Assembly (NCBI RefSeq): GCF_009914755.1
Contig: NC_060930.1
DNA length: 64,000 bases
Strand: one strand, 5' to 3'
Origin: the human T2T-CHM13v2.0 reference genome, Homo sapiens
A model generated the notes under the pieces. The model saw only the letters and a program-made list of their open reading frames with translations, was not told the origin of the DNA and made no database searches. Below, one piece after another: positions 1 to 4,889 of the stretch. Made by a program: the position numbers and the translations under genes. Every line of letters begins with the position of its first letter. Position 1 is the stretch's first letter.

Positions 1-1419
1 CCCAAGCAAGCCAGTAAGTTCGACAAGCTGCCAATAAAGATAGTCAAAAAGAACAACCTGTTTGTTGTTGACCGATCTGACAAGTTGGGGCGTGTGCAGG
101 AGTTCAATAGTGGCCTTCTGCACTGGCAGCTCGGCGGGGGTGACACCACCGAGCACATTCAGACTCACTTTGAGAGCAAGATGGAAATTCCTCCTCGCAG
201 GCGCCCACCTCCCCCCTTAAGCTCCGCAGGTAGAAAGAAAGAGCAAGAAGGCAAAGGCGACTCTGAAGAGCAGCAAGAGAAAAGCATCATAGCAACCATC
301 GATGACGTCCTCTCTGCTCGGCCAGGGGCATTGCCTGAAGACGCAAACCCTGGGCCCCAGACCGAAAGCAGTAAGTTTCCCTTTGGTATCCAGCAAGCCA
401 AAAGTCACCGGAACATCAAGCTGCTGGAGGACGAGCCCAGGAGCCGAGACGAGACTCCTCTGTGTACCATCGCGCACTGGCAGGACTCGCTGGCTAAGCG
501 ATGCATCTGTGTGTCCAATATTGTCCGTAGCTTGTCATTCGTGCCTGGCAATGATGCCGAAATGTCCAAACATCCAGGCCTGGTGCTGATCCTGGGGAAG
601 CTGATTCTTCTTCACCACGAGCATCCAGAGAGAAAGCGAGCACCGCAGACCTATGAGAAAGAGGAGGATGAGGACAAGGGGGTGGCCTGCAGCAAAGATG
701 AGTGGTGGTGGGACTGCCTCGAGGTCTTGAGGGATAACACGTTGGTCACGTTGGCCAACATTTCCGGGCAGCTAGACTTGTCTGCTTACACGGAAAGCAT
801 CTGCTTGCCAATTTTGGATGGCTTGCTGCACTGGATGGTGTGCCCGTCTGCAGAGGCACAAGATCCCTTTCCAACTGTGGGACCCAACTCGGTCCTGTCG
901 CCTCAGAGACTTGTGCTGGAGACCCTCTGTAAACTCAGTATCCAGGACAATAATGTGGACCTGATCTTGGCCACTCCTCCATTTAGTCGTCAGGAGAAAT
1001 TCTATGCTACATTAGTTAGGTACGTTGGGGATCGCAAAAACCCAGTCTGTCGAGAAATGTCCATGGCGCTTTTATCGAACCTTGCCCAAGGGGACGCACT
1101 AGCAGCAAGGGCCATAGCTGTGCAGAAAGGAAGCATTGGAAACTTGATAAGCTTCCTAGAGGATGGGGTCACGATGGCCCAGTACCAGCAGAGCCAGCAC
1201 AACCTCATGCACATGCAGCCCCCGCCCCTGGAACCACCTAGCGTAGACATGATGTGCAGGGCGGCCAAGGCTTTGCTAGCCATGGCCAGAGTGGACGAAA
1301 ACCGCTCGGAATTCCTTTTGCACGAGGGCCGGTTGCTGGATATCTCGATATCAGCTGTCCTGAACTCTCTGGTTGCATCTGTCATCTGTGATGTACTGTT
1401 TCAGATTGGGCAGTTATGA
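1..1419 (+). CDS. ARID1B: ARID1B (BAF250B, SWI/SNF cBAF subunit) terminal coding exon, 5'-partial; encodes the C-terminal BAF250_C/EHD2 armadillo-like domain
   Basis: Frame 1 is open from base 1 ([35 protein letters not shown]...) to TGA at 1417-1419. The translation contains the ARID1-family motifs [51 protein letters not shown], an LxxLL motif (LDGLL, 814-828) and the ARID1B C-terminus [12 protein letters not shown]. The ORF-track start at 85 (TTG) is not a real start. Confidence 0.98.
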
Positions 1420-1907
1420 CATAAGTGAGAAGGCAAGCATGTGTGAGTGAAGATTAGAGGGTCACATATAACTGGCTGTTTTCTGTTCTTGTTTATCCAG
1501 CGTAGGAAGAAGGAAAAGAAAATCTTTGCTCCTCTGCCCCATTCACTATTTACCAATTGGGAATTAAAGAAATAATTAATTTGAACAGTTATGAAATTAA
1601 TATTTGCTGTCTGTGTGTATAAGTACATCCTTTGGGGTTTTTTTTTTCTCTTTTTTTTAACCAAAGTTGCTGTCTAGTGCATTCAAAGGTCACTTTTTGT
1701 TCTTCACAGATCTTTTTAATGTTCTTTCCCATGTTGTATTGCATTTTTGGGGGAAGCAAATTGACTTTAAAGAAAAAAGTTGTGGCAAAAGATGCTAAGA
1801 TGCGAAAATTTCACCACACTGAGTCAAAAAGGTGAAAAATTATCCATTTCCTATGCGTTTTACTCCTCAGAGAATGAAAAAAACTGCATCCCATCACCCA
1901 AAGTTCT

Positions 1908-1915
1908 GTGCAATA
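1908..1915 (+). promoter_or_regulatory. miR-25/32/92/363/367 8mer seed site (GTGCAATA); second 7mer-m8 at 3230-3236
   Basis: Exact seed match in the 3'UTR; function not shown. Confidence 0.5.
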
Positions 1916-2196
1916 GAAATTTCTACAGATACAGGTATAGGGGCTCAAGGAGGTATGTCGGTCAGTAGTCAAAACTATGAAATGATACTGGTTTCTCCAC
2001 AGGAATATGGTTCCATTAGGCTGGGAGCAAAAACAATGTTTTTTAAGATTGAGAATACATACCTGACAACGATCCGGAAACTGCTCCTCACCACTCCCGT
2101 CATGCCTGCTGTCGGCGTTTGACCTTCCACGTGACAGTTCTTCACAATTCCTTTCATCATTTTTTAAATATTTTTTTTACTGCCTATGGGCTGTGA

Positions 2197-2204
2197 TGTA
2201 TATA
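2197..2204 (+). promoter_or_regulatory. Pumilio response element TGTATATA (second PRE TGTACATA at 3268-3275)
   Basis: Both match UGUAHAUA exactly. Confidence 0.5.
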
Positions 2205-2761
2205 GAAGTTGTACATTAAACATACCCTCATTTTTTTCTTTTCTTTTTTTTTTTTTTTTTTAGTACAAAGTTTTAGTTTCTTTTTCATGATGTGGTAACT
2301 ACGAAGTGATGGTAGATTTAAATAATTTTTTATTTTTATTTTATATATTTTTTCATTAGGGCCATATCTCCAAAAAAAGAAAGAAAAAATACAAAAAACA
2401 AAAACAAAAAAAAAAGAGGGTAATGTACAAGTTTCTGTATGTATAAAGTCATGCTCGATTTCAGGAGAGCAGCTGATCACAATTTGCTTCATGAATCAAG
2501 GTGTGGAAATGGTTATATATGGATTGATTTAGAAAATGGTTACCAGTACAGTCAAAAAAGAGAAAATGAAAAAAATACAACTAAAAGGAAGAAACACAAC
2601 TTCAAAGATTTTTCAGTGATGAGAATCCACATTTGTATTTCAAGATAATGTAGTTTAAAAAAAAAAAAAAGAAAAAAACTTGATGTAAATTCCTCCTTTT
2701 CCTCTGGCTTAATGAATATCATTTATTCAGTATAAAATCTTTATATGTTCCACATGTTAAG

Positions 2762-2767
2762 AATAAA
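2762..2767 (+). terminator. Candidate proximal PAS (AATAAA, with ATTAAA at 2773)
   Basis: Two hexamers 11 nt apart, followed by GT-rich gggtgttctt. Confidence 0.45.
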
Positions 2768-2788
2768 TGTACATTAAATCTTGTTAAG

Positions 2789-2796
2789 CACTGTGA
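2789..2796 (+). promoter_or_regulatory. miR-128 8mer / overlapping miR-27 7mer-m8 site (CACTGTGA)
   Basis: Exact seed match just downstream of the proximal PAS candidate. Confidence 0.45.
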
Positions 2797-3855
2797 TGGG
2801 TGTTCTTGAATACTGTTCTAGTTTCCTTAAAGTGGTTTCCTAGTAATCAAGTTATTTACAAGAAATAGGGGAATGCAGCAGTGTATTCACATTATAAAAC
2901 CCTACATTTGGAAGAGACCTTTAGGGGTTACCTACTTTAGAGTGGGGAGCAACAGTTTGATTTTCTCAAATTACTTAGCTAATTAGTCTTTCTTTGAAGC
3001 AATTAACTCTAACGACATTGAGGTATGATCATTTTCAGTATTTATGGGAGGTGGCTGCTGACCCACTTGAGGTGAGATCTCAGAAGCTTAACTGGCCTGA
3101 AAATGTAACATTCTGCCTTTTACTAACTCCATCTTAGTTTAATCAAAGTTCAATCTATTCCTTGTTTCTTCTGTGTGCCTCAGAGTTATTTTGCATTTAG
3201 TTTACTCCACCGTGTATAATATTTATACTGTGCAATGTTAAAAAAGAATCTGTTATATTGTATGTGGTGTACATAGTGCAAAGTGATGATTTCTATTTCA
3301 GGGCATATTATGGTTCTCATATTCCTTCCTACCTGGTGCACAGTAGCTTTTTAATACTAGTCACTTCTAATTTAAACTTTCTCTTCCTGGGTCATTGACT
3401 GTTACTGTGTAATAATCGATTTCTTTGAAACTGCTGCATAATTATGCTGTTAGTGGACCTCTACCTCTTCTCTTCCCTCTCCCAATCACAGTATACTCAG
3501 AATCCCCAGCCCCTCGCATACATTGTGTCGGTTCACATTACTCACAGTAATATATGGAAGAGTTAGACAAGAACATGCAGTTACAGTCATTGTGAGACGT
3601 GACTCTCCAGTGTCACGAGGAAAAAAATCATCTTTTCTGCAAACAGTCTCTCATCTGTCAACTCCCACATTACTGAGTCAAACAGTCTTCTTACATAACA
3701 ATGCAACCAAATATATGTTGAATTAAAGACCCATTTATAATTCTGCTTTAAATACATCTGCTTGCTAAGAACAGATTTCAGTGCTCCAAGCTTCAAATAT
3801 GGAGATTTGTAAGAGGGAATTCAATATTATTCTAATTTCTCTCTTACAGAGTACA

Positions 3856-3861
3856 AATAAA
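3856..3861 (+). terminator. Candidate alternative PAS (AATAAA)
   Basis: Canonical hexamer inside the 3'UTR. Confidence 0.45.
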
Positions 3862-4255
3862 AGGTGTATACAAACTCCGAACATATCCAGTATTCCAATT
3901 CCTTTGTCAATCAGAAGAGTAAAATAATTAACAAAAGACTGTTGTTATGGTTTGCATTGTAACCGATACGCAGAGTCTGACCGTTGGGCAACAAGTTTTT
4001 CTATCCTGATGCGCAACACAGTCTCTAGAGACTAATCCAGGAAGACTTTAGCCTCCTTTCCATATTCTCACCCCCGAATCAAGATTTACAGAAGCCCACG
4101 AAGAATTTACAGCCTGCTTGAGATCATCTTGCCTATAAACTGAGTTATTGCTTTGTCCTAAAAATTAGTCGGTTTTTTTTTTTCTATGAGGCTTTTCAGA
4201 AATTTACAGGATGCCCAGACTTTACATGTGTACCAAAAAAAAAAAAAAGATAAAA

Positions 4256-4261
4256 AATAAA
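4256..4261 (+). terminator. Distal polyadenylation signal (AATAAA), likely the main ARID1B PAS
   Basis: AATAAA with upstream TGTA (4229-4232) and downstream GT/T-rich tracts (gttgaatctgttggtatttgagtggattttttt). Confidence 0.75.
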
Positions 4262-4889
4262 GGTGCAAAGAAAGTTTAGTATTTTGGAATGGTGCTATAA
4301 AGTTGAATCTGTTGGTATTTGAGTGGATTTTTTTAATGTCACATAAGAGATACTGGGCGGCGTCTGCTCAGCAATAGCTATTCACAGTGTTTTGTTCGAG
4401 GAAGAGAATGATATAGAAGCATGTTTTACTGATGAAGGTGGCCTGTTCAAAGACTAGTTAAGCTGTTTTTTCAGAGTTATAATGAAGAATGATTTTTTTA
4501 AGGGCATATGGGCAGTCTCATACAATGTAAGCTATTAACTACCTCCTTTATGAAAAGAAGCCAGCCTTTGCCCTGAAGTCCATCCATTTAAAACTGTTGG
4601 AAATCTTTCATTTCCTATCAAACCACATGTACCTGTTCCCATGTCTGTTCACCTTTGAGGAAGCAAAGAAAGTATTATAAATGAGCCACAAATGGACAGT
4701 GCAAACAGTCCCTGTTCTTCTTGCTGAGTGTTGGTTCACTTCTTTATTTCGAGGGCCGTGGCCCAGCTGCCTGAAGTCCTGCTCAGCACCAGCCTAGAAG
4801 AACTTGGAAGTAAACTTCATGGTCAGGCAAGATTGTTAAAAACTCTGATGAATACACTTGGTAGCAGCATTTAATCTGCGAACAGGCAA

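What the first reader, a model, noticed from the sequence alone, without database searches (positions are those of the whole stretch)
2188..2450. ~260-nt rod-like RNA hairpin in the ARID1B 3'UTR that buries a Pumilio element
Seen: a collinear series of complementary blocks with a near-constant register (arm sums 4639-4660). 2197-2208 TGTATATAGAAG pairs with 2432-2443 TTTCTGTATGTA (12 bp, 4 G-U). 2209-2218 TTGTACATTA pairs with 2421-2430 TAATGTACAA (perfect). 2225-2229 CCCTC pairs with 2416-2420 GAGGG. U-run 2231-2261 pairs with A-run 2393-2415. GTA 2263 pairs with TAC 2390. TTTCTTTTT 2277-2285 pairs with AAAAAGAAA 2374-2382. GATGTGGT 2289-2296 pairs with GCCATATC 2361-2368 (2 G-U). CTA pairs with TAG, and GAAGTGATG 2303-2311 pairs with TATTTTTTC 2346-2354. 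Many DNA-level mismatches are G-U on the sense strand, which is what selection on RNA rather than DNA structure predicts. The apparent poly-T and poly-A filler tracts are the two arms of one stem. The PRE at 2197-2204 is in the basal stem. Inference: a dsRNA element for Staufen, ADAR or other dsRBPs, or a switch gating PUM access, in a haploinsufficient gene (Coffin-Siris syndrome) where mRNA dose matters.
Basis: partly seen in the sequence, partly recalled or inferred. Interest (0 to 1): 0.82.

Follow-up and report, generated by a model that had tools for sequence, protein, structure and literature searches.

The report
Long AU-rich hairpin in ARID1B 3'UTR
A stretch of about 255 bases in the tail of the ARID1B messenger RNA is predicted to fold back on itself into one long, weak hairpin. 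Its base includes an ancient protein-binding site shared with the sister gene ARID1A, but nothing yet shows that the fold itself is used.

Summary
Window 2188-2450 (+) folds into one rod-like hairpin (MFE -61.1 kcal/mol, z -5.3, 0 of 200 shuffles). All eight claimed blocks pair as described. The fold is not explained by the U/A runs (z -4.6 with the runs kept). It survives in every context up to the whole 3'UTR. It is much better on the mRNA strand than on the antisense strand (-42.7, z -2.7).

The new context comes from the paralogue. The 5' arm (2195-2233, with the Pumilio element) is one of four islands still at least 75% identical between the ARID1B and ARID1A 3'UTRs. ARID1A does not form the stem: fold z -0.42, arm duplex at chance level, arm pairing probability 0.000, no compensatory pair.

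Opening the Pumilio element costs 4.0 kcal/mol. The ARID1A element costs 3.9 and a second ARID1B element 5.2, so it is not specially buried.

Verdict: this is a real, ARID1B-specific predicted long-range AU-rich duplex laid over an ancient linear regulatory island. A dsRBP or switch function is plausible but unsupported. No vertebrate orthologues or structure-probing data were available.

The parts
2189..2192 (+). Outermost 4-bp helix, 5' side (pairs with 2447-2450)
   Evidence: MFE helix list. All four pairs are broken in ARID1A.
2196..2229 (+). 5' basal arm. Helices 2196-2208, 2209-2216 and 2223-2229, with a 6-nt internal loop at 2217-2222.
   Evidence: Pair probabilities are 0.85-0.98 in all six contexts. 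Shuffling the basal arms alone gives z -4.3, 0 of 150.
2197..2204 (+). Canonical Pumilio response element, UGUAUAUA
   Evidence: Regex UGUA[ACU]AUA, (the consensus is recalled). Also present in ARID1A at L011 3506. Opening cost 4.0 kcal/mol.
2195..2233 (+). Island conserved with the ARID1A 3'UTR (at least 75% identity in 30-nt windows). It covers the whole 5' arm.
   Evidence: blastn 84% over 38, E 7e-4. MAFFT alignments. The 19-base motif inside it occurs with 0 mismatches only in ARID1A and ARID1B in the whole genome.
2215..2220 (+). AUUAAA hexamer inside the 5' arm, 11 nt before the U-run. ARID1A has AUUGCA here.
   Evidence: Usage not testable.
2231..2261 (+). U-run (31 nt, 2 C). Slippery partner of the A-run, and absent from ARID1A at this position.
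   Evidence: TRF period 1. P(paired into the A-run) 0.66. Alignment.
2277..2325 (+). 5' side of the apical AU-rich stem (helices 2277-2285, 2289-2296, 2299-2301, 2303-2306, 2308-2311, 2314-2317, 2320-2325)
   Evidence: 2262-2392 alone folds at -25.9, z -3.0 (0 of 150). In context z is only -1.6.
2330..2382 (+). 3' side of the apical stem. Overlaps (ATTTTTT)n low complexity and the start of the A-run.
   Evidence: The soft-masked interval is 2312-2424.
2372..2415 (+). A-run (44 nt, interrupted by G, C and T)
   Evidence: TRF. Pairs with the U-run in four short helices.
2416..2444 (+). 3' basal arm (GAGGGUAAUGUACAAGUUUCUGUAUGUAU), with G2431 bulged. Holds three UGUA motifs (2424, 2436, 2440).
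   Evidence: It is the best partner of the 5' island among 550 windows of the 3'UTR: -29.3, next non-overlapping -17.9. Its core TGTACAAGTTTCTGTA matches ARID1A 14 of 16, collinear but E 0.099.
2447..2450 (+). Outermost 4-bp helix, 3' side

Best explanation
Window 2189-2450 is a genuine, thermodynamically strongly favoured, imperfect hairpin of the ARID1B mRNA strand.

Its base has 28 bp (2196-2229 with 2416-2444; loop span about 186 nt). It is formed by a 39-nt UGUA-rich island pairing with a second UGUA-rich block downstream. The island carries the Pumilio element. Between the two arms lie ARID1B-only low-complexity U and A runs and a weak AU-rich apical stem.

What is ancient and evidently selected is the linear sequence of the 5' island. 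That sequence is shared almost unchanged with the ARID1A 3'UTR, and it most likely serves as a Pumilio-type protein-binding site. The pairing is not ancient in the same way, because ARID1A keeps the island but has no complementary partner.

I therefore read the hairpin as an ARID1B-specific long-range AU-rich duplex laid over an older linear regulatory site. It probably forms in free RNA. In cells it must compete with proteins that bind UGUA, U-runs and A-runs. If it has an effect, that effect is modest:
- an ordinary brake of about 4 kcal/mol on access to the Pumilio element;
- a duplex of the size, span and A:U richness that STAU1 is reported to bind.

Shown: the fold, its statistics, its strand bias, the paralogue conservation of the 5' arm, and the absence of the stem in ARID1A. 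Inferred: protein binding, formation in cells, and any regulatory effect.
For: - Fold and controls: MFE -61.1, z -5.3, 0 of 200. With the runs kept, z -4.6, 0 of 150. Basal arms only, z -4.3, 0 of 150.
- Anchors hold at P 0.79-0.99 in six contexts, up to the 2888-nt 3'UTR. The 3-bp mid helix is the exception at P 0.50.
- The basal stem alone, closing an open loop, evaluates to -26.8.
- The antisense strand folds at only -42.7, z -2.7.
- Arm complementarity goes beyond motif self-pairing. With UGUAUAUA, UGUACA x2 and UGUAUGUA kept and the rest of the arms shuffled, the duplex is -18.6 +/- 3.6 against the observed -34.0 (0 of 400).
- The 3' arm is the best partner of the 5' island in the whole 3'UTR.
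- The 5' island is conserved with ARID1A. The 19-base motif is exact only in the two paralogues genome-wide.
- ARID1A lacks the stem. Fold z -0.42, 62 of 200. Arm duplex -19.6 against shuffled -18.7, 148 of 400. P(arms pair) 0.000. Of 32 basal pairs mapped onto ARID1A: 14 unchanged, 3 one-sided changes, 0 compensatory, 8 broken, 7 gapped.
- PRE opening costs are 4.0, 5.2 and 3.9 kcal/mol.
- STAU1-bound 3'UTR duplexes have a main span mode of 252 nt, and the long-range ones are richer in A:U (PMC10164587, passages).
Against: - Only one homologue, a paralogue that I take from recalled knowledge to date from the early vertebrate genome duplications, could be compared. It cannot tell loss in ARID1A from gain in ARID1B. 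A stem kept in all ARID1B orthologues would argue for selection on structure.
- Motif self-pairing explains only about 6 of the roughly 22 kcal/mol of excess arm complementarity. Something, selection or a recent templated mutation, made the arms match.
- In a shifted register ARID1A can still form GAC/GUC + UUGUACA/UGUACAG + GCAC/GUGC. The column-wise count of 0 compensatory pairs may therefore understate a remnant, although the total is at chance level.
- The sense/antisense asymmetry is what RNA-level selection predicts.
- All energies are nearest-neighbour predictions for naked RNA. No probing or cross-linking data were seen.
Confidence: 0.5

Rival explanations
1. The hairpin is itself the selected element: a long-range dsRNA platform for STAU1 or another dsRBP, or a switch in which the stem gates Pumilio access (or Pumilio binding opens the opposite strand), tuning the dose of ARID1B mRNA.
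For: - Strong, context-independent, sense-biased fold.
- Arm complementarity well beyond motif content (0 of 400).
- The 3' arm is the unique best partner.
- Span of about 190-250 nt and 67 of 94 A-U pairs fit the long-range, A:U-rich class of STAU1-bound duplexes (PMC10164587, passages).
- PREs near miRNA sites are reported to sit preferentially in stable 3'UTR structure that PUM opens (PMC3794589, abstract and passages).
Against: - No compensatory change, and no stem, in ARID1A.
- The PRE opening cost is ordinary.
- The basal stem has a 1-nt bulge and a 6-nt one-sided loop, and the longest unbroken helix is 13 bp with 4 G-U. The hiCLIP atlas reports that long-range STAU1 duplexes tend to be symmetric and without bulges.
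- ARID1B does not occur in the main text of that atlas (0 occurrences). Its supplements are closed.
- Four of the seven answered paper searches bore on this stem or its binders and found nothing.
Confidence: 0.28
2. The signals here are RNA-processing signals and the fold is incidental. One reading is a cryptic or alternative poly(A) site: UGUA x2, AUUAAA at 2215, then a U-rich downstream element at 2231-2261. Another is a 3' splice-site-like Y31-AG at 2231-2263.
For: The motif layout is read directly from the sequence. Another copy of UGUACAUUAAA sits at 2768, next to AAUAAA at 2762, inside the block that aligns with the end of the ARID1A 3'UTR.
Against: - All 37 RefSeq ARID1B transcripts listed over this stretch end at 4307, and none ends or splices here.
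- The hexamer is not conserved in ARID1A, which has ATTGCA.
- This reading does not explain the 28-bp arm complementarity.
- No poly(A)-site data were available.
Confidence: 0.1
3. A DNA-level feature: a relic of a palindromic mobile element or an inverted duplication, or an AT-rich palindrome that forms a cruciform. The RNA fold would be a side effect.
For: The arms align as an inverted repeat: 83 matches, 24 mismatches, 33 gap columns. The DNA-parameter fold is -30.7, z -3.0, 0 of 200. The interval 2312-2424 is soft-masked.
Against: - No other copy exists in the genome. All 58 further matches lie in the U/A-run portions of the query (query positions 72-134 and 217-304).
- Both arm cores are collinear with ARID1A, so the arms were not created by an insertion or duplication after the paralogues split.
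- The palindrome is too imperfect and its spacer too long for easy extrusion (inference).
- The mask coincides with simple repeats found by TRF.
Confidence: 0.05
4. Chance complementarity in AT-rich low-complexity sequence.
For: AT-rich runs pair trivially, and the repeat finder lists 199 inverted pairs in 2000-2700. The raw duplex energy is ordinary for this window (1884 of 7958).
Against: Zero of 200, 150, 150 and 400 shuffles reach the observed values. It has the lowest z of 89 windows. Among AT-rich segments only 2 of 1153 do as well.
Confidence: 0.02

Closest known systems
STAU1-bound long-range 3'UTR duplexes (hiCLIP atlas, PMC10164587; passages read)
   Same: An intramolecular 3'UTR duplex. 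The loop span of about 186-246 nt is close to the reported main mode of 252 nt. It is A:U rich (67 of 94 pairs).
   Different: No STAU1 cross-link evidence was seen, and ARID1B is absent from the paper's main text (supplements closed). The stem has a bulge and a one-sided 6-nt loop, whereas the atlas reports symmetry and a lack of bulges for long-range duplexes.
Pumilio-dependent structure switch of the p27/CDKN1B 3'UTR (Kedde et al. 2010, seen only as cited in PMC3794589) and the general finding that PREs near miRNA sites lie in stable structure (PMC3794589; abstract and passages)
   Same: A canonical PRE sits inside a predicted stable 3'UTR stem. The opposite strand would be freed if PUM bound.
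   Different: No miRNA site on the partner strand was tested. The PRE's opening cost (4.0 kcal/mol) equals that of PREs outside any long hairpin. No PUM binding data were seen.
Low-complexity repeats as drivers of RNA-RNA duplexes (PMC12905285; listing abstract and passages)
   Same: The U-run and A-run are low-complexity tracts that can pair in many registers.
   Different: That study analysed intermolecular duplexes and discarded intramolecular ones. Here the tracts add nothing to the fold's significance.
The ARID1A 3'UTR, the paralogous region (L011 3495-3705)
   Same: The same 5' island: PRE, GUUGUACAUU, ACAUACCCU. The 3' core is collinear (UGUACAGGUCUCUGUA), and the 3'UTR end is conserved.
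   Different: No U or A runs between the blocks; there are 125 GC-rich nt instead. The arms are not complementary beyond chance and no hairpin is predicted.

Membership tests
STAU1-bound long-range 3'UTR duplex | Intramolecular duplex within a 3'UTR, with arms more than 100 nt apart | tested here: met
   Predicted only. The arms 2196-2229 and 2416-2444 have P 0.85-0.98 in the whole-3'UTR fold.
STAU1-bound long-range 3'UTR duplex | A:U-rich, symmetric stem with few bulges (as reported in PMC10164587) | tested here: inconclusive
   It is A:U rich (67 of 94 pairs), but has a 1-nt bulge (G2431) and a 6-nt one-sided loop at 2217-2222.
STAU1-bound long-range 3'UTR duplex | STAU1 cross-linking or hybrid reads joining the two arms | not testable with these tools
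   No read data. ARID1B has 0 occurrences in the main text of PMC10164587. Supplements are closed.
Pumilio structure switch (p27 type) | Canonical PRE, UGUANAUA | tested here: met
   UGUAUAUA at 2197-2204. The consensus is recalled.
Pumilio structure switch (p27 type) | PRE held in a structure that limits access more than usual | tested here: not met
   The opening cost is 4.0 kcal/mol, against 5.2 (ARID1B 3268) and 3.9 (ARID1A).
Pumilio structure switch (p27 type) | A miRNA site on the strand paired to the PRE region, exposed on PUM binding | not tested
   No miRNA seed table was at hand.
ADAR substrate dsRNA | A long, nearly perfect duplex (tens of bp) with A-to-I sites | tested here: inconclusive
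   The longest unbroken helix is 13 bp, or 21 bp across one bulge. Editing data were not available. The length requirement is recalled.
Any Rfam family | A covariance-model match at the gathering score | tested here: not met
   Five weak matches in 1400-4400, all far below gathering, and none overlapping the hairpin at 2188-2450.
Non-autonomous DNA transposon (MITE-like) | Many copies in the genome with terminal inverted repeats | tested here: not met
   Own-genome search: besides the locus itself, all 58 matches lie in the U/A-run portions of the query (query positions 72-134 and 217-304). The arm cores are collinear in ARID1A.
Palindromic AT-rich repeat (PATRR-type) | A near-perfect AT-rich palindrome of several hundred bp | tested here: not met
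   The arms show 83 matches, 24 mismatches and 33 gap columns. The definition is recalled.
Poly(A) site | A hexamer with upstream UGUA and a downstream U-rich element | tested here: met
   UGUA at 2197 and 2210, AUUAAA at 2215, U-run at 2231-2261. This is sequence layout only.
Poly(A) site | Observed cleavage and polyadenylation | not testable with these tools
   No RefSeq transcript ends here. No 3'-end data.

The most novel reading that the evidence does not exclude
After the ARID1A/ARID1B split, ARID1B acquired (or alone retained) a partner arm and U/A zipper tracts. These turn an ancient shared Pumilio-type island into one strand of a roughly 250-nt long-range duplex. This would give the haploinsufficient ARID1B a paralogue-specific layer of mRNA dosage control: dsRBP (STAU1-type) binding competing with Pumilio on the same bases. 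It would be a natural case of a structure evolving on top of a conserved linear element, with ARID1A as the built-in stemless control.
Probability: 0.2. Interest if true: 0.6.

Novelty: new member of a known kind. Interest (0 to 1): 0.4.

Why it matters
ARID1B is dosage sensitive. Elements that set its mRNA level are therefore of clinical interest for reading non-coding variants.

The useful result here is a sharpened hypothesis:
- The 39-nt island 2195-2233 is a deeply conserved regulatory site shared with ARID1A, and it is the safest candidate for function.
- The hairpin around it is specific to ARID1B. That gives a clean contrast between paralogues with which to test whether long AU-rich 3'UTR duplexes modulate access to linear sites.

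If the stem proves to be conserved among ARID1B orthologues, it would be a well-defined example of a long-range 3'UTR duplex in a disease gene. If it does not, it is an ordinary by-product of UGUA-rich and low-complexity sequence.

Tried and rejected
- Transposon or repeat origin. The own-genome DNA search found no second copy, only matches within the U/A-run portions of the query. Rejected.
- Known RNA family. The Rfam E-value search of 1400-4400 found nothing near gathering.
- 'The runs make the hairpin.' Rejected by the shuffle that keeps the runs.
- 'UGUA motifs alone make the basal stem.' They explain part of it (-18.6 vs -12.2) but not the observed -34.0.
- Conserved stem in ARID1A. Tested four ways and not found.
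- Homology of the 3' arm. It is collinear and 14 of 16, but only E 0.099 in a restricted search, so I treat it as suggestive.
- Special burial of the PRE. Rejected.
- DNA cruciform. The DNA fold has z -3.0 but the palindrome is imperfect, so it is unlikely.

Literature. There were seven answered searches. The terms were:
- ARID1B + UTR + Staufen
- ARID1B + Pumilio
- ARID1B + UTR + hairpin + conserved
- Pumilio/p27/miR-221/structure
- hiCLIP/Staufen/duplexes
- ARID1A/ARID1B/PUM1/PUM2/PRE
- ARID1B + alternative polyadenylation + proximal

None of them gave a paper on this hairpin or on a proximal ARID1B poly(A) site. PMC11837999 concerns an intronic ultraconserved enhancer of ARID1B and is not relevant. 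PMC11467182 and PMC13027334 mention ARID1B only in passing.

Supplementary tables are closed. hiCLIP duplex lists and PUM CLIP target lists could bear directly on the claim, and I could not see them.

Full report
**What is there.** A base-by-base check of the eight claimed blocks confirmed all of them:
- 12 bp with 4 G-U
- a perfect 10 bp (TTGTACATTA/TAATGTACAA)
- CCCTC/GAGGG
- GTA/TAC
- a perfect 9 bp
- 8 bp with 2 G-U

Arm sums are 4639-4659. The U-run and A-run as quoted are 31 and 23 nt, so they cannot pair one-to-one.

RNAfold gives a single rod-like hairpin of 94 pairs at -61.1 kcal/mol: 67 A-U, 15 G-C and 12 G-U.

**Is it more than chance?**
- Against 200 dinucleotide shuffles z is -5.31, and none folds as well. 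My own 150 shuffles gave z -5.18.
- The obvious worry is that a U-run followed by an A-run folds trivially. That does not hold. With both runs kept in place and the other three segments shuffled, the mean is -40.8. This is the same as a full shuffle, and z is still -4.56 (0 of 150).
- Shuffling only the basal arms costs about 12.7 kcal/mol (z -4.30, 0 of 150).
- Shuffling only the apical 2262-2371 costs little (z -1.62, 11 of 150). That piece alone has z -3.0.
- I planned to score 122 same-length + strand windows. Of these, 89 were scored and 33 were lost to the time limit. This window has the lowest z (-5.54; next -4.07). It is the only window placed in register with its structure.
- I scanned 33-nt segments against the 150-300 nt downstream. 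The raw energy of the basal stem (-26.7) is common in this largely GC-rich window (1884 of 7958 on +). Among AT-rich segments it is rare: 2 of 1153 on +, 2 of 1136 on -.

**Robustness and strand.**
- The anchor helices keep probabilities of 0.79-0.99 in six contexts, from 263 nt to the full 2888-nt 3'UTR. The 3-bp mid helix is at 0.50. Fifty of 56 anchor pairs are in every MFE.
- The basal stem evaluated alone, closing an open 185-nt loop, is -26.8 kcal/mol. It does not depend on the runs.
- The antisense strand folds at only -42.7 (z -2.68, 1 of 200). With DNA parameters the sense strand gives z -3.0.
- In a DNA-level alignment of the arms there are 83 matches, 24 mismatches and 33 gap columns. 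Eight mismatches are G-U on the mRNA and two are A-C.

- Eight of ten is about p = 0.055 one-sided (my arithmetic).
- Many of the wobbles are not independent. UGUA pairs with UGUA, and UAUA with UGUA, by wobble, and UGUACA is its own complement. All five UGUA motifs of 2100-2560 lie in the two arms.
- Transcribed strands carry a G+T excess anyway (recalled knowledge).

A direct test of the motif idea kept the four motifs fixed and shuffled the rest of the arms. The duplex was then -18.6 +/- 3.6, against -12.2 for fully shuffled arms and -34.0 observed (0 of 400). The motifs explain roughly a third of the excess and no more.

**What it is not.**
- There is no second copy in the human genome. 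All 58 other matches to 2150-2500 lie in the U/A-run portions of the query.
- There is no Rfam match near threshold.
- The only masked interval (2312-2424) coincides with simple repeats found by TRF.

**The paralogue.**
- A sensitive blastn of the ARID1B 3'UTR against the last 4 kb of ARID1A (L011) found two collinear homologies. Window 2588-2787 matches the very end of the ARID1A 3'UTR (77% over 213 columns, E 5e-37). Window 2192-2228, the 5' arm, matches L011 3504-3540 (84% over 38, E 7e-4).
- In a global alignment of the two 3'UTRs, only four stretches stay at or above 75% identity in 30-nt windows: 2195-2233, 2588-2620, 2609-2638 and 2668-2793. The 5' arm is therefore one of very few conserved islands.
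- The 19 specified bases of GTTGTACATTNNACATACCCT occur without mismatch only in these two genes in the whole genome. There is one 1-mismatch hit elsewhere, no more than the reversed control gives.
- The 3' arm core aligns collinearly (TGTACAAGTTTCTGTA vs TGTACAGGTCTCTGTA, 14 of 16). That is only E 0.099 even in a restricted search.
- The U and A runs and the apical stem have no counterpart. ARID1A has 125 GC-rich nt between the blocks.

ARID1A does not form the stem:
- Its equivalent 211 nt fold with z -0.42 (62 of 200).
- The probability that its arms pair is 0.000, and their duplex is -19.6 against -34.0 in ARID1B. That is what shuffled arms give (-18.7; 148 of 400).
- The best partner of its 5' island lies elsewhere.
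- Of the 32 basal pairs mapped onto ARID1A, 14 are unchanged, 3 changed on one side, none is compensatory, 8 are broken and 7 fall in gaps.
- In a shifted register ARID1A can still form GAC/GUC, UUGUACA/UGUACAG and GCAC/GUGC. I note this as a possible remnant, but it is not above chance.

In ARID1B, by contrast, the 3' arm is the best partner of the island among 550 windows of the 3'UTR (-29.3; next independent -17.9; mean -10.0, sd 3.5).

**The Pumilio element.**
- UGUAUAUA at 2197-2204 matches the consensus (recalled), and it is paired in the model (P unpaired 0.03-0.18).
- The ensemble cost of freeing all eight bases is 4.0 kcal/mol. It is 5.2 for the other PRE of this 3'UTR (3268) and 3.9 for the homologous ARID1A PRE, which sits in no long hairpin.
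- So 'buried' is true, but not special. The neighbouring UGUACAUU (9.2) and the 3'-arm UGUAUGUA (7.5) are more strongly held.

**Literature.**
- Seven answered searches found nothing on this hairpin, on Pumilio or Staufen regulation of ARID1B, or on a proximal ARID1B poly(A) site.
- The hiCLIP atlas (PMC10164587; passages) reports that STAU1-bound 3'UTR duplexes have a main span mode of 252 nt. It also reports that long-range ones are richer in A:U, symmetric and poor in bulges. ARID1B is not in its main text, and its supplements are closed.
- MREdictor (PMC3794589; abstract and passages) reports that PREs near miRNA sites tend to lie in stable structure that PUM opens. It cites the p27 switch of Kedde et al. 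2010.

**Reading.**
- The fold is real as a prediction and is ARID1B-specific.
- The deeply conserved thing is the linear 5' island. I infer it to be a protein-binding site of the Pumilio type, present in both paralogues.
- I think the hairpin is most likely a lineage-specific long-range AU-rich duplex laid over that site. Its effect would be modest, and it would face competition from proteins that bind UGUA, U-runs and A-runs (confidence 0.5).
The arm complementarity clearly exceeds motif content, and the one comparison I could make cannot tell gain in ARID1B from loss in ARID1A.
- Processing-signal (0.1), DNA-level (0.05) and chance (0.02) readings are less likely.

**Limits.**
- No orthologous vertebrate sequence, structure-probing, CLIP or 3'-end data were reachable.
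- All energies are nearest-neighbour predictions for naked RNA.
- The z-scan is incomplete (89 of 122 windows) and covers the + strand only.

Noticed in passing
window 2588-2793 (and L011 3812-4000): The end of the ARID1A 3'UTR, including its poly(A) signals, aligns at 77% (E 5e-37) with an internal stretch of the ARID1B 3'UTR that holds AATAAA at 2762 and ATTAAA at 2773. This looks like a conserved proximal poly(A) site of ARID1B. It would give a 3'UTR of about 1375 nt, close to ARID1A's roughly 1350 nt. All RefSeq transcripts listed here end at 4307.
   Followed up: partly
window 2208-2228; G000:C1:26619579-26619599: The motif GTTGTACATTNNACATACCCT occurs without mismatch only in the ARID1A and ARID1B 3'UTRs in the whole genome. 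It is a paralogue-shared element of unknown binder that extends well beyond the 8-nt Pumilio site.
   Followed up: partly
window 2210-2220 and 2768-2778: TGTACATTAAA occurs twice in ARID1B, once in the 5' arm and once at the proximal poly(A) signals. AATGTACATT at 2766-2775 is a perfect 10-nt palindrome and could compete for the 3' arm. The whole-3'UTR model still prefers the local hairpin.
   Followed up: partly
window 2231-2263: A 31-nt pyrimidine tract followed directly by AG resembles a strong 3' splice acceptor. No annotated splice uses it.
   Followed up: no
window 2372-2415, 2657-2678: Genomically encoded A-runs of 44 and 22 nt lie inside the 3'UTR. They would prime oligo-dT internally and could create false poly(A) sites in 3'-end data sets.
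   Followed up: no
L011 3503-3535 (ARID1A): In ARID1A the conserved island folds on itself into a small local hairpin (GUGUGUA with UGCACAU), with GUUGUACAUU in or near the loop. ARID1B has A-A where ARID1A has a G-C pair, so this local fold is weaker there.
   Followed up: no
window 519-1018: RefSeq lists an H3K4me1 hESC enhancer element inside the last coding exon of ARID1B.
   Followed up: no
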